Positions 38,952-41,554 of a stretch of 41,554 nt of DNA are shown in pieces. The notes beneath the pieces are model-generated. The model saw only the letters and a list, made by a program, of their open reading frames with translations. It did no database searches and had not been told where the DNA came from. The DNA comes from Candidatus Curtissbacteria bacterium RIFCSPLOWO2_01_FULL_41_18 (lineage in GTDB: Bacteria; Patescibacteriota; Microgenomatia; Curtissbacterales; GWA2-41-24): positions 1 through 41,554 of the forward strand of contig MFBQ01000025.1 in NCBI GenBank assembly GCA_001776475.1, written 5' to 3'. The translations under genes and the position numbers were made by a program. How positions within the stretch are numbered: the first letter of the stretch is position 1; each line of letters starts with the position of its first letter.

Positions 38952-41554
38952 AATCAAAAAGGTTTTGCTTCTTGGTTCCGGCGCCCTGCAAATCGGCCAA
39001 GCAGGTGAATTTGATTACTCCGGCTCGCAGGCAATCAAGGCACTCAAAGAGAAAAACATAGAGGTCGTCCTCATCAATCCCAACATCGCAACTATCCAAA
39101 CATCCCAAAATTTTGCGGACAAAGTCTATTTTTTGCCAATAGACCCCCATTTTGTAGAAGAAGTGATAAAAGCCGAAAAGCCGGACGGCATACTTCTTTC
39201 CTTTGGAGGCCAAACAGCCCTAAACTGCGGGCTTACTTTAAATAAAGCAAAGATTTTGGCAAAACACGGCGTCGAGATTCTCGGAACACCAATTGCAGCA
39301 ATAGAAAAAACCGAAGACAGGAATCTTTTTGCAAAAAGCCTAAAAGAAATTAGCTTATCTATTCCCAAAAGCGTGGCCGTAAACACTTTGCAAAAAGCAA
39401 AAGACGCAGCTAAACAAATCGGCTATCCGGTAATGATCCGCGGCGGCTTTTCACTAGGCGGCCAAGATTCCGGAGTTGCCAGAAACGAGATAGAGCTCGT
39501 AGAAATTGCATCTCGCGCTCTTTCAAAAGTTAAACAGATTTTAATAGAGGAATATCTCTCCGGTTGGAAGGAAATCGAATACGAAGTCGTTCGCGATAAA
39601 TTTGATAACTGCATTACCGTTTGCAATATGGAAAATATTGACCCAATGGGAATCCATACGGGAGAATCCATAGTCGTTGCACCATCCCAAACCCTTAACA
39701 ATTTTGAGTATCATGGCCTTCGCCAAATCGCAATCAAAGTCATTAGATATTTAGGGATAGTCGGGGAGTGCAACATCCAGTTTGCCCTGAACCCACAACC
39801 AAAATCGGGTGGTGTCGACAGAAGGGCTCCCGACAGCGCGCAGTCGACACATCAAAATCAAAATACAGTGCGAAATATCAGTCGACGAGCACTGGCGGGA
39901 GGGAAGTCGACAACAGGACCCGATTTTGACCTGCTCGATTATAGAATAATCGAGGTCAATGCCCGTTTGTCACGCTCCTCCGCACTAGCCTCAAAAGCCA
40001 CAGGCTATCCCTTGGCCTACGTTGCCACCAAACTTGCACTCGGCCAAAGCTTAACTGAAATCAAAAACTCCGTTACCGGCAAGACCATTGCCTGCTTTGA
40101 ACCGGCTCTAGATTATCTGGTCGTCAAAATTCCCAGATGGGATCTGGCTAAATTTGTCAAAAGCGACAGCCTTATCGGCTCCTCCATGCAATCGGTAGGC
40201 GAGGTGATGGCAATCGGGCGCAAATTCGAAGAAGCCTTACAAAAGGCTATTCGCATGCTCGATATCAACATGGAAACTCCCTTGGATGAAAAAGCTCTGC
40301 ATCCCGACTACACAAAGCCAACTCCGTGGCGAATCTTCGCAATAGCACAAGCTCTTAAAAAAGGTGATACTGTTTCAAAAATCGCCAAAACTACCGCAAT
40401 CGACCCATTTTTCCTTTACAAAATTAAAAATATTGCAGATTTTGAAAAAGAACTTAAAAAAGTAAAAGGCATCGATAAAAATCTGCTGATAGAAGCTAAG
40501 CAGCTCGGCTTTTCCGACAAACGACTTGCAACACTTATAAAAACAACCGAAGAGGCAATTAGAGACCTTCGCCAAAAGTTCGACCTCCATCCCGCCATCA
40601 AACAGATCGACACGTTGGCAGCAGAATACCCAGCAGAAACGAATTACCTGTACCTAACATACAACGGGTCATCTGATGATATTGATAAAAAGTCAAATGT
40701 CCCGCCAAAGACGAGGCTCGCTTCTGGCGGCAAAAGTCAAATGTCAAAAGTGATTGTTTTAGGCTCCGGTCCTTACCGCATCGGCTCATCAGTTGAATTC
40801 GACTGGTGCGCAGTAAACGCCGCTCAAACTGCTGCCAAATCGCACCTTTCGCCGATTATCATAAACTGCAATCCGGAAACAGTTTCAACCGATTACGACA
40901 TGGCCGACAAACTCTATTTTGAAGAATTAACCGAAGAAACAATTGCCGAAATTTATCAAAAAGAAAAGCCAGATGGGATCATTGTCTCAATGGGAGGCCA
41001 AACACCCAATAATCTTACTCCACAACTTGCCAAATTAGGTTTAAACATTTTAGGGACAGACCCCGCATCCATCGACAGAGCAGAGGACAGAAGCAAATTT
41101 TCCGACCTTTGCGACGAGTTGAAAATTAACCAGCCTCCCTGGGCAAAACTGTCAAACATAAAAGACGCTGTAGCATTTGCCCGAAAAATCGGCTATCCGG
41201 TTTTGGTCAGACCCTCCTATGTACTCTCGGGAGCGGCCATGAATGTGGCATTTAACTCAGCTGATCTAAAAGAATACCTACAAGCCGCCTCCCAAGTTTC
41301 CAGTGAGTATCCGGTGGTCATCTCTAAGTTTTATCAGGATGCCAAAGAGTTTGAAATAGATGCGGTTGCAAAAAGTGGCCAAATTCTAACTTTTGCCATC
41401 ACCGAGCACATCGAAAATGCCGGGGTACATAGCGGGGATTCCCATGTAGTTTTACCGACGCAAAAACTCAACAAAAAGACAAAAGAAGAAGTCGAAAAAG
41501 TCGCAGCAAAAATTGCCAACGAGCTTAAAATCACCGGCCCGTTTAATATCCAGT
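38941..41554 (+). CDS. carB: Carbamoyl-phosphate synthase large subunit, open at the window end, with two in-frame repeat insertions
   Basis: Absent from the track because the 3' end is open. My translation begins [37 protein letters not shown]. Later blocks include [27 protein letters not shown], and the second half begins [21 protein letters not shown]. I checked the frame by hand at 39781-40020 and 40561-40810. Confidence 0.93.
   Translation, partial: [871 protein letters not shown]
39801..39927. mobile_element. Family-C palindromic insert inside carB
   Basis: Terminal inverted repeats are AAAATCGGGT...GTCGAC and GTCGAC...ACCCGATTTT. There are four GTCGAC palindromes inside. It encodes about 40 extra residues ([40 protein letters not shown]) between the conserved FALNP and [12 protein letters not shown] blocks. 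Confidence 0.65.
40688..40745. repeat. 29-nt hairpin flanked by a 14-nt direct repeat inside carB
   Basis: AAAAGTCAAATGTC (40688-40701), then the hairpin CCGCCAaagacgaggctcgcttcTGGCGG (40702-40730), then c and AAAAGTCAAATGTC (40732-40745). Confidence 0.6.

What the first reader, a model, noticed from the sequence alone, without database searches (positions are those of the whole stretch)
39801..39927. About 40-codon palindromic insert with four GTCGAC sites inside the first ATP-grasp domain of CarB
- From memory, E. coli CarB has only about 8 residues between the conserved blocks FALNP and [12 protein letters not shown]. Here there are about 50.
- The extra DNA is bounded by the inverted repeats AAAATCGGGTggtGTCGAC and GTCGACaacaggACCCGATTTT.
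- It carries four copies of the palindrome GTCGAC.
- It is open in the carB frame.
- Its right end (gacaacaggacccg) resembles gcgacaggacccg in the gyrA-carA spacer at about 36795, suggesting a third element family.
Basis: partly seen in the sequence, partly recalled or inferred. Interest (0 to 1): 0.6.

Follow-up and report, generated by a model that had tools for sequence, protein, structure and literature searches.

The report
Selfish hairpin repeat inside carB
The extra 43 codons in the carbamoyl-phosphate synthetase gene of this tiny uncultured bacterium are one copy of a dispersed hairpin-forming DNA repeat, kept in frame and most likely translated as a floppy surface loop, much as in the palindromic elements of Rickettsia; the same loop holds other unrelated hairpin repeats in sister species.

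Summary
Window 39800-39928 (129 nt, 43 codons) is extra DNA in frame in carB. It has four GTCGAC sites and folds into one long nested hairpin. Error-free contigs from at least three independent metagenome runs cover both junctions, so it is not an assembly artefact.

The insert belongs to a structured palindromic repeat family of about 115-128 nt.
- 26 of 32 genomes of the same bacterial family have 1-19 copies.
- The stems covary strongly and the asymmetric internal loops are conserved. Rfam has no match.
- 43 of 47 sampled copies lie in frame inside long housekeeping genes, in both orientations and in at least three reading frames.

The insert sits at the turn between the two strands that carry the Mg-ATP ligands of ATP-grasp domain 1, and is predicted to be disordered. 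In sister genomes this turn is empty or holds other dispersed hairpin families. Carriers are scattered on the CarB tree, so the site turns over quickly.

The closest known analogue is the Rickettsia palindromic elements. I rate it a new family of a known kind. The mobilising enzyme is unknown and translation is inferred, not shown.

The parts
38941..41553 (+). carB (carbamoyl-phosphate synthetase large subunit). The ORF runs past the window end, and an N-masked gap follows at C25:41555-41560.
   Evidence: ORF listed. Matches human CPS1 at E 4e-291 and E. coli CarB at E 7e-227. The N run was seen.
39800..39928 (+).
   Evidence: Covariance model R1 match at 39801-39927, 135 bits, E 2e-26.
39807..39921 (+). 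Core repeat unit GGGTGG...GACAGGACCC (115 nt), the part shared by all family members.
   Evidence: Alignment A1. Two near-identical young copies in a LeuRS gene of G015 match only from (G)GGTGGC to GACAGGACCC(G).
39800..39810 (+). P1 5' arm, CAAAATCGGGT. GGGT is invariant in the family. CAAAATC is a local extension that overlaps the native codons for Pro-Lys-Ser.
   Evidence: Empty sites of sister genomes keep CCAAAATC (L022).
39918..39928 (+). P1 3' arm, ACCCGATTTTG.
39813..39819 (+). P2 5' arm, TGTCGAC. It pairs with 39906-39912, and this stem covaries at all 7 pairs across copies.
   Evidence: helix 2 is 98% paired, 7 of 7 pairs with changes on both sides.
39906..39912 (+). P2 3' arm, GTCGACA.
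39820..39826 (+). Conserved purine-rich internal loop, 5' side (AGAAGGG; family consensus GGAAGGG). It faces GGAA at 39902-39905.
   Evidence: Alignment A1 and the copies listed.
39913..39917 (+). Conserved asymmetric loop ACAGG (family consensus GACAGG), opposite GG at 39811-39812.
   Evidence: Columns C114-C121 are invariant.
39827..39836 (+). P3 5' arm, CTCCCG.CAG. It pairs with 39892-39901 (CTG.CGGGAG).
   Evidence: helix 3, 87% paired.
39843..39886 (+). Distal stem P4 (GTCGAC at 39843-39848 pairs with GTCGAC at 39881-39886) and the variable A-rich apical loop.
36670..36813 (+). Diverged intergenic copy of the same family in the gyrA-carA spacer. It ends 7 nt before the carA start codon.
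   Evidence: (28 bits).

Best explanation
The insert is a non-autonomous, structured palindromic repeat: selfish DNA of the kind known as Rickettsia palindromic elements.

Shown here:
- It sits in the turn of the beta-hairpin between the two strands of CarB ATP-grasp domain 1 that carry the nucleotide and metal ligands.
- The added length is a multiple of three with no stop codon, so the gene stays intact.
- The element is a dispersed family, its hairpin is kept by paired changes, and family copies occur in frame in many genes in both orientations.
- The CarB site is occupied by different families in different species.
- The insert is real DNA in several samples.

Inferred:
- The 43 codons are translated as a hydrophilic, disordered loop that projects from the surface and leaves catalysis unharmed.
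- The unit spreads at the DNA level, probably as a single-stranded hairpin at replication forks, with no obvious target-site duplication. Only in-frame, stop-free landings in permissive loops survive in a genome that is about 90% coding.
- Once a loop is occupied it keeps turning over through deletion, replacement by other hairpin families, and outward growth or repair of the stem. Template switching during replication would do the last of these.

Not shown: translation of the loop, the transposition mechanism, and the enzyme involved.
For: Family and structure:
- blastn and the covariance model R1 find 5 copies in this genome (carB; the gyrA-carA spacer; C44, in frame in a PHP-domain gene; two intergenic on C47).
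- About 125 copies occur in 26 of 32 genomes of the bacterial family.
- 88.6% of cells are paired against 72% in shuffles (0 of 500 reach it). 17 of 26 pairs have changes on both sides. Slid controls give 38-45%.
- Rfam has no match.

Genic, in-frame habit:
- 43 of 47 sampled copies lie in long ORFs with coding sequence on both sides.
- Hosts include a UvrD-like helicase, ATP-dependent DNA ligase, LeuRS (three copies in one gene), Obg, RadA, Fpg, carA and a second carB site.
- Copies are read in at least three frames, 19 sense and 24 antisense.

Recent mobility: two copies in one LeuRS gene are identical over about 173 nt.

Permissive site:
- CPS1 and E. coli alignments place the insert between the strand with Q280 and the strand with E338/N340. 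These equal E. coli E299/N301 by the register.
- The AlphaFold model gives strands 275-283 and 334-340, with residues 290-330 at pLDDT about 30.

Hotspot:
- The site is 5 to 48 residues long in 29 relatives. Nearly all long inserts are hairpins of different families.
- Two of those families were tested and are dispersed repeats.
- G009 keeps a remnant, CAACAGGACCCGCG.
- The tight clade G026 / G030 / G016 shows this family, another hairpin, and an empty site.

Real DNA.
Against: - No RNA or protein data exist for this organism, so translation of the loop rests only on frame and stop-codon preservation.
- No transposase, target-site duplication or autonomous partner was found. Y1 (HUH) transposase-like genes are frequent in these genomes, but their number does not follow the copy number of this family.
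- Stems and conserved asymmetric loops are maintained even in copies at the same gene site in different genera. Passive junk DNA would not be expected to do this, which leaves room for a function or for a repair-like mechanism.
- The core unit is 115-116 nt, not a multiple of three. Each surviving genic copy therefore needs extra or missing bases that I could not account for exactly.
Confidence: 0.82

Rival explanations
1. The hairpin is kept because it works in the nucleic acid of the host gene. It might be an mRNA structure that slows ribosomes between the two halves of the ATP-grasp fold, stabilises the long carAB transcript, or serves as a protein-binding DNA site. On this reading the element has been domesticated and is not merely tolerated.
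For: - Copies at the same carB site in five genera keep all helices through compensatory changes, while the encoded peptide changes.
- The P1 extension also changes in a paired way: AATC/GATT in G000 against AACC/GGTT in G031.
- Internal loop sequences are nearly invariant across about 50 copies.
Against: - Many sister species have an empty site or an unrelated hairpin at the same place, and close relatives differ (G026, G030, G016). No particular structure is therefore required there.
- In-gene copies are as often antisense as sense (24 against 19). An RNA that depends on the conserved asymmetric loops cannot be the general reason for conservation.
- Template switching can keep stems complementary without selection (PMC8794818).
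Confidence: 0.1
2. The insert is a lineage-specific functional protein loop of CarB, for example a regulatory or interaction segment. On this reading it only happens to be encoded by palindromic DNA.
For: - It is in frame, hydrophilic and retained in several genera.
- CarA and CarB of this clade carry several such segments.
Against: - The same DNA unit is translated in other frames and on the opposite strand in other proteins, for example GPVSSFPPASARS...LRAVGNPS. The peptide is therefore not what is conserved.
- Residues encoded by the covarying stem differ freely (VD/ST, SS/RL, IT/VM).
- pLDDT is about 30.
- The loop is absent in many relatives whose CarB is otherwise 73-79% identical.
Confidence: 0.04
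3. The insert is removed or skipped before the protein is made. It could be an intron-like RNA excision, a translational bypass as in T4 gene 60 or the mitochondrial 'byp' elements, or an intein.
For: A very stable hairpin inside a coding region is what bypass elements look like. No RNA or protein data exclude it directly.
Against: - All 29 CarB genes keep one open frame across the site, whatever element occupies it, and 43 of 47 copies elsewhere do the same. Spliced or bypassed elements have no need to be stop-free and a multiple of three.
- There is no matching take-off and landing codon pair with a stop behind it.
- No Rfam intron or ribozyme matches.
- Being read in three frames excludes an intein.
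Confidence: 0.03
4. The insert is an assembly or binning artefact: a repeat collapsed into carB.
For: The element is a repeat. De Bruijn contigs of the public runs break inside it.
Against: - Contigs with no differences span the left junction plus about 100 nt of the element, and the right junction plus about 48 nt, in X1, X2 and X3. X5 covers the left junction and most of the element (39729-39915).
- The same element sits at the same site in four other independently assembled genomes.
Confidence: 0.01

Closest known systems
Rickettsia palindromic elements (RPE-1 to RPE-10; Ogata et al. 2000 and 2002, as summarised in PMC10969869)
   Same: - Dispersed palindromic repeats of 100-150 bp in a small, reduced genome.
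- Very often inserted in frame in unrelated housekeeping genes.
- Thought to be translated as surface segments compatible with the fold.
- No transposase known.
   Different: - The host lineage differs: Microgenomates/CPR rather than Alphaproteobacteria.
- No sequence relationship was tested.
- This family has conserved asymmetric internal loops and strongly covarying stems.
- It is read in at least three frames and both orientations. As far as I recall, RPE-1 is read in one frame.
- The same protein loops are re-used by several unrelated hairpin families, with fast turnover.
REPs, including CGTC- and GTAG-tagged families and intragenic REPs (Di Nocera et al. 2013, PMC3733652), and REPINs/RAYTs
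   Same: - Hairpin repeats that spread in bacterial genomes, some of them inside genes for replication and repair proteins.
- CGTC REPs also lack a dedicated transposase.
- Other inserts at the same CarB site in sister genomes (the TGTCATTGCGAGC type) look like CGTC-type REPs.
   Different: - This element is 115-128 nt with four nested helices. REPs are a 20-40 nt single stem of 8-9 bp with a 4-5 nt loop and a CCA tail.
- It has GACAG motifs but not the REP layout.
- Y1/RAYT-like gene counts do not track it.
[quoted passage not shown]
   Same: Small, non-coding, with inverted termini, multi-copy, and occasionally fused in frame to host ORFs.
   Different: No target-site duplication is visible at the two young copies. 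No related full-length insertion sequence was found. The whole element, not just its ends, is one hairpin.
Hairpins created and maintained by template switching in replication (PMC8794818)
   Same: This offers a selection-free way to obtain perfect stems, multi-base compensatory changes and outward stem growth. The P2 stem and the P1 extension of the carB copies show this pattern.
   Different: That work concerns the origin of RNA hairpins in situ. Here the hairpin is a dispersed repeat with a conserved core, so template switching can only be a maintenance or extension step. It cannot be the origin.

Membership tests
Rickettsia palindromic elements (as a functional kind: in-frame coding palindromes) | Dispersed multi-copy palindromic repeat of about 100-150 bp | tested here: met
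   5 copies in G000 and about 125 in 26 of 32 related genomes, with a unit of 115-128 nt. Hairpin z = -5.
Rickettsia palindromic elements (as a functional kind: in-frame coding palindromes) | High frequency of in-frame insertion in unrelated protein-coding genes | tested here: met
   43 of 47 sampled copies lie inside long ORFs.
Rickettsia palindromic elements (as a sequence family) | Sequence homology to RPE-1 to RPE-10, or occurrence in Rickettsiales | not tested
   No RPE sequences were compared. True hits of model R1 occur only in Microgenomates-type CPR contigs among the loci scanned. The claim is therefore 'works like an RPE', not 'is an RPE'.
Rickettsia palindromic elements (as a functional kind) | The inserted segment is translated and lies on the protein surface | tested here: inconclusive
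   Frame and stop preservation and a low-confidence loop at a beta-turn support it. No RNA or protein data exist.
CGTC/GTAG-tagged REPs (PMC3733652) | 20-40 nt, a single stem of 8-9 bp, a 4-5 nt loop, a terminal GTAG or CGTC tag, and a CCA tail | tested here: not met
   The element has four nested helices over 115-128 nt with conserved internal loops. The definition was read.
REPIN/RAYT systems | Co-occurrence with, and flanking of, a Y1 (HUH) RAYT gene | tested here: not met
   PF01797 genes are present in 26 of 32 genomes but are uncorrelated with this family: G023 has 19 copies and 0 genes, G016 has 0 copies and 8 genes. Flanking of the four G000 genes by this family was not seen (copy positions).
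MITE | Target-site duplication and a cognate autonomous insertion sequence with the same ends | tested here: not met
   No direct repeat flanks the two identical LeuRS copies. Clusters of hits turned out to be multiple insertions in large genes, not elements flanking a transposase.
Known structured RNA families (Rfam 15) | A match at or near the gathering score | tested here: not met
   No match at gathering level in the window. The only hit was a spurious 21.9-bit match to a vertebrate lncRNA model.
Translational bypass elements (T4 gene 60, mitochondrial byps), introns and inteins | The insert need not keep the frame; it has stops or take-off/landing codons, or splicing motifs | tested here: not met
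   Every insert at this site in 29 genomes is open and a multiple of three. The family is read in three frames. No intron or ribozyme model matches.

The most novel reading that the evidence does not exclude
Microgenomates may host a community of hairpin elements (this GC-rich structured family, AT-rich 7-nt-period families, and REP-like ones) that spread by a structure-directed, transposase-independent or as yet unknown mechanism.

- The elements would preferentially enter, replace and extend one another at the same beta-turn loops of essential enzymes.
- That would make a handful of protein loops (CarB, CarA, DNA ligase, Fpg, LeuRS) fast-evolving 'landing pads'.
- The invariant asymmetric loops (GG/GACAGG and GGAAGGG/GGAA) would be the recognition site of an unidentified CPR-specific protein acting on single-stranded DNA.
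Probability: 0.2. Interest if true: 0.7.

Novelty: new member of a known kind. Interest (0 to 1): 0.45.

Why it matters
- Annotation. Curtissbacteria and related CPR proteins contain stretches that are repeat DNA, not protein features. Aligners, domain callers and structure predictors will misread these 30-50-residue segments unless they are masked.
- Protein evolution. One beta-hairpin turn next to an active site has accepted at least five unrelated hairpin repeats in closely related species. This is a natural map of loops that tolerate insertion.
- Mobile DNA. The family combines strong covariation with invariant asymmetric loops and has no known enzyme. That is the signature of a specific but unidentified recognition system.
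- Generality. If the pattern is general, the selfish coding palindromes so far best known from Rickettsia are a recurrent outcome of extreme genome reduction with high coding density.

Tried and rejected
- Rfam at gathering and permissive thresholds found nothing real.
- A 17-nt pattern scan of all genome contigs returned mostly chance hits in high-GC genomes. The covariance model was needed to separate them.
- I took an apparent carB frame break at C25:41568 for a possible further insertion. It is only an N-masked gap at the window end.
- Clusters of model hits were examined as candidate autonomous elements. They are multiple in-frame insertions in LeuRS, Obg-like and membrane protein genes.
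- Y1/RAYT transposases were tested as partners and show no correlation.
- The small extra CarB segment at 40699-40760 was tested as a remnant of the family. It is a different mini-hairpin with a 14-nt direct repeat.
- A search for RNA runs found none.
- Exact insertion boundaries and target duplication could not be derived from filled versus empty sites. The 'empty' loops themselves differ between genera.
- A literature search for a description of such elements in CPR found none. The library is limited, so this is weak evidence of absence.
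Full report
**1. The observation**

Window 39800-39928 reads CAAAATCGGGTGGTGTCGACAGAAGGGCTCCCGACAGCGCGCAGTCGAC...GTCGACGAGCACTGGCGGGAGGGAAGTCGACAACAGGACCCGATTTTG. It lies inside the 871-codon open frame that starts at 38941 and runs off the window.

That frame is carB. It matches human CPS1 (5dot_A) at E 4e-291 and E. coli CarB (1bxr_A) at E 7e-227.
- The CPS1 alignment is split: query 4-286 pairs with 410-695, and query 332-871 with 697-1232. About 44 residues therefore have no counterpart.
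- By the E. coli register (query 336 = residue 297), E338 and N340 correspond to E299 and N301. From memory of the E. coli structure papers, these are metal ligands of the carboxyphosphate site.

The four GTCGAC sites are real. The window holds 8 in 41.5 kb against 3.1 expected.

The stretch folds as one nested hairpin of -53.7 kcal/mol, z = -5.0.

**2. Not an artefact**

The region is held by many groundwater and soil metagenome runs.
- Contigs with no differences cover the left junction plus most of the element: X1 39646-39909, X2 39622-39899, X3 39601-39899, X5 39729-39915.
- Others cover the right junction: X1 39880-40230, X2 39880-39960.
- Contigs break inside the element, as expected for a repeat in a de Bruijn graph.
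- No joint that skips the element was seen for this strain.
- Related organisms in other runs diverge exactly at about 39785-39798 and rejoin near 39978 with other or shorter content.

**3. A repeat family with a conserved structure**

blastn of the element against the 634-kb, 47-contig genome (40% GC) found diverged relatives on C44 and C47. A motif scan added the gyrA-carA spacer copy.

All copies fold alike:
- P1 (...GGGU/ACCC...), followed by an asymmetric loop GG / (G)ACAGG;
- P2 (7 bp), followed by a purine loop GGAAGGGN / (G)GAA(A);
- P3 (UCCCG/CGGGA), followed by a variable distal hairpin.

I aligned eight copies: five from the carB site of five genomes and three others from this genome (A1). 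On this alignment:
- 88.6% of cells pair, against 72% after shuffling (0 of 500 shuffles reach it).
- 17 of 26 pairs show changes on both sides.
- P2 is 98% paired, with all seven pairs covarying.
- Sliding the partner by 1-3 columns drops pairing to 38-45%.

Rfam has no such family.

A covariance model (R1) finds 5 copies here and about 125 in 26 of 32 genomes of the same bacterial family, nearly all 125-131 nt long. Among contigs from a collection-wide pattern scan, R1 scores only those from Curtiss-, Roizman- and Levybacteria and unnamed Patescibacteria. A set labelled 'Gammaproteobacteria' includes the very contig of G006 and so is mislabelled.

**4. The family lives inside genes**

Of 47 copies whose surroundings I fetched, 43 lie in open frames that continue at least 40 residues on both sides.

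Hosts include:
- a UvrD-like helicase, a FolC/Mur-like ligase, Obg, RadA, Fpg and a glycosyltransferase;
- ATP-dependent DNA ligase (the same loop in G026, G003, G009 and G029);
- a PHP-domain protein (the same loop in G000 and G027);
- LeuRS, with three copies in one gene of G015;
- carA (two sites) and three carB sites.

The unit is read in at least three ways:
- GG.SGR.PDSAQST...STSTGGRETGDRTP;
- the carB variant ...[8 protein letters not shown]..TGP.;
- on the other strand, GPVSSFPPASARS...NVELRAVGNPSTAATR.

Orientation relative to the host gene is 19 sense to 24 antisense.

Each copy is open mainly in the frame in use. Other frames usually carry stops. The openness therefore results from selection on each insertion, and is not a property of the sequence.

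Two LeuRS copies are identical over about 173 nt and differ immediately outside (G)GGTGGC...GACAGGACCC(G), with no direct repeat at the flanks. This shows recent spread, defines the mobile core, and argues against a classical target-site duplication.

**5. Where it sits in CarB**

In 29 related carB genes, the segment between [10 protein letters not shown] and [11 protein letters not shown] ranges from 5 to 48 extra residues.

An AlphaFold model of residues 1-432 (13-sequence alignment, mean pLDDT 62) gives strands 275-283 and 334-340. Residues 290-330 between them have pLDDT of about 30. The insert therefore extends the turn of a beta-hairpin whose two strands carry active-site residues. The ends of an inserted segment are naturally close together at such a turn.

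The encoded peptide ([43 protein letters not shown]) is hydrophilic and low in complexity.

**6. A hotspot shared by several families**

At the DNA level, nearly every long insert at this site is itself a hairpin, and they belong to different families:
- this GC-rich family in G000, G006, G031, G010 and G026;
- an AT-rich GAAATTGGAAATT type in G012, G021, G017 and G018;
- an ACCAGAGACC type in G019, G024, G025 and G005;
- a GAGTCCGCC type in G007 and G015;
- a TGTCATTGCGAGC type in G004;
- several others.

Two of these were tested and are dispersed repeats.
- The AT-rich one has 47 matches in G012 and occurs in 23 of 32 genomes.
- The TGTCATTGCGAGC type has 21 matches in G004.

G009 keeps only a remnant of the present family, CAACAGGACCCGCG.

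On a CarB tree (704 trimmed columns, LG+G4), carriers of this family are scattered. The very tight clade G016 / G026 / G030 (100% support) shows three states: empty, this family, and another hairpin.

The same pattern holds at two other loops.
- In the DNA ligase loop the empty form is HKNGDKVEIF. Filled genomes share HLDR... whichever family sits there. G016 has a chimera in which this family's terminus runs straight into a TGTCATTGCGAGG repeat.
- The Fpg loop holds tandem 7-10-mers or hairpins.

Fifteen of about 127 model hits lie in carAB, which is about 0.5% of a genome. Some of these are inherited copies and so are not independent.

**7. What maintains the hairpin**

The carB-site copies differ in P2:
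- TGTCGAC/GTCGACA in G000;
- CAGTAGT/ACGACTG in G006;
- CATAACT/AGTTATG in G031 and G010;
- CACGAGT/ACTCGTG in G026.

They also differ in the P1 extension (AATC/GATT against AACC/GGTT). Complementarity is kept while the encoded residues change.

Three explanations remain open:
- independent insertions of different subfamily members at one site;
- selection on structure;
- template switching during replication, which copies one arm from the other and can also extend a stem into the flanks (PMC8794818).

The two young LeuRS copies lack a P1 extension, whereas older copies have 4-6 extra complementary base pairs. This fits post-insertion stem growth, but rests on a small sample. The left extension CAAAATC in carB overlaps native codons that are also present in empty sites (CCAAAATC). 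This suggests that the right-hand GATTTTG was made to match it. That step is inference.

**8. The enzyme is unknown**

Y1 (HUH) transposase-like genes are common in these genomes: 26 of 32 genomes, four in G000. They do not co-vary with this family. No copy in G000 flanks such a gene.

The Ssn/GIY-YIG lead from earlier notes concerns the short REP-like families. It was not tested for this family.

**9. Comparison with known elements, and verdict**

The behaviour matches what is described for Rickettsia palindromic elements: 100-150-bp palindromic repeats that are frequently fused in frame to housekeeping ORFs in a compact genome (PMC10969869).

It does not fit other known kinds.
- It is not a CGTC/GTAG REP as defined in PMC3733652.
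- It is not a MITE, having no target-site duplication and no partner insertion sequence.
- It matches no Rfam family.
- It does not behave as a bypass element, intron or intein.

Two literature searches found no description of such elements in CPR. Other windows of this scan have independently met related copies.

I therefore rate it a new family of a known kind. Its less ordinary features are conserved asymmetric loops with strong covariation, use of both orientations and several frames, and rapid multi-family turnover at the same protein loops.

Translation of the loop and the mode of transposition remain inferences.

Noticed in passing
window 40699-40760: In the carB linker before the second ATP-grasp domain, a roughly 30-nt mini-hairpin (CCGCCAAAGACGAGGCTCGCTTCTGGCGGC) is flanked by a 14-nt direct repeat AAAAGTCAAATGTC. 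It encodes the extra '[15 protein letters not shown]'. It looks like a different in-frame mini-insert with a target-site duplication and is not a member of the R1 family.
   Followed up: partly
window 37300-37434 (carA): CarA carries its own extra segment of about 45 residues (…GVATTTIGSRKGKDSIAEFTPNKKEILRSAQDDRNERLQNDKGK…) in the linker before the glutaminase domain. In other genomes the same linker and a second CarA loop hold R1-family copies (G023, G015, G017, G012).
   Followed up: partly
genome contig C25:41640-41690 (just beyond the window end): A tandem heptamer CAACCGT x5 encodes QPSTVNRQPSTV in the second ATP-grasp domain of CarB. G023, G024 and G026 carry R1-family copies in exactly this loop. 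An N-masked gap at 41555-41560 mimics a frame break.
   Followed up: partly
genome contig C44:12307-12434 (L176): A second in-frame genic copy of the family in this genome, in antisense orientation, lies inside a 527-aa PHP-domain protein gene. G027 has a copy at the same site.
   Followed up: partly
L190 (G015:C7:19000-23000): One LeuRS gene holds three in-frame copies of the family at three sites, two of them identical over about 173 nt with a longer interior. This is evidence of recent local spread.
   Followed up: yes
L235 (G016 DNA ligase gene) and L230-L236: The ligase beta-turn after motif KxDGxR is another multi-family hotspot. G016 shows a chimera in which this family's terminus, GGGTCCTGTCA, continues directly as a TGTCATTGCGAGG REP-like repeat. 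This suggests that elements insert into or recombine with one another.
   Followed up: partly
G000 contigs C46:4355-4684, C36:3766-3996, C47:13576-13836, C1:18973-19209: This 634-kb genome has four Y1 (HUH, PF01797) transposase-like genes of about 225-255 aa. Such genes occur in 26 of 32 genomes of the family, up to 9 per genome. Their cognate repeats were not identified.
   Followed up: no
window 38941-41553: This CarB is more similar to human mitochondrial CPS1 (971 bits) than to E. coli CarB (759 bits). carB is present in nearly all genomes of this bacterial family but in only 4 of 29 sampled genomes of the other families and orders of the class.
   Followed up: no
loci L079, L062, L066 and others (TPA assemblies titled 'uncultured Gammaproteobacteria'): Several public MAG records labelled Gammaproteobacteria carry this CPR repeat. 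One is the same contig as G006:C10, with identical length and coordinates, so the labels are probably wrong.
   Followed up: partly
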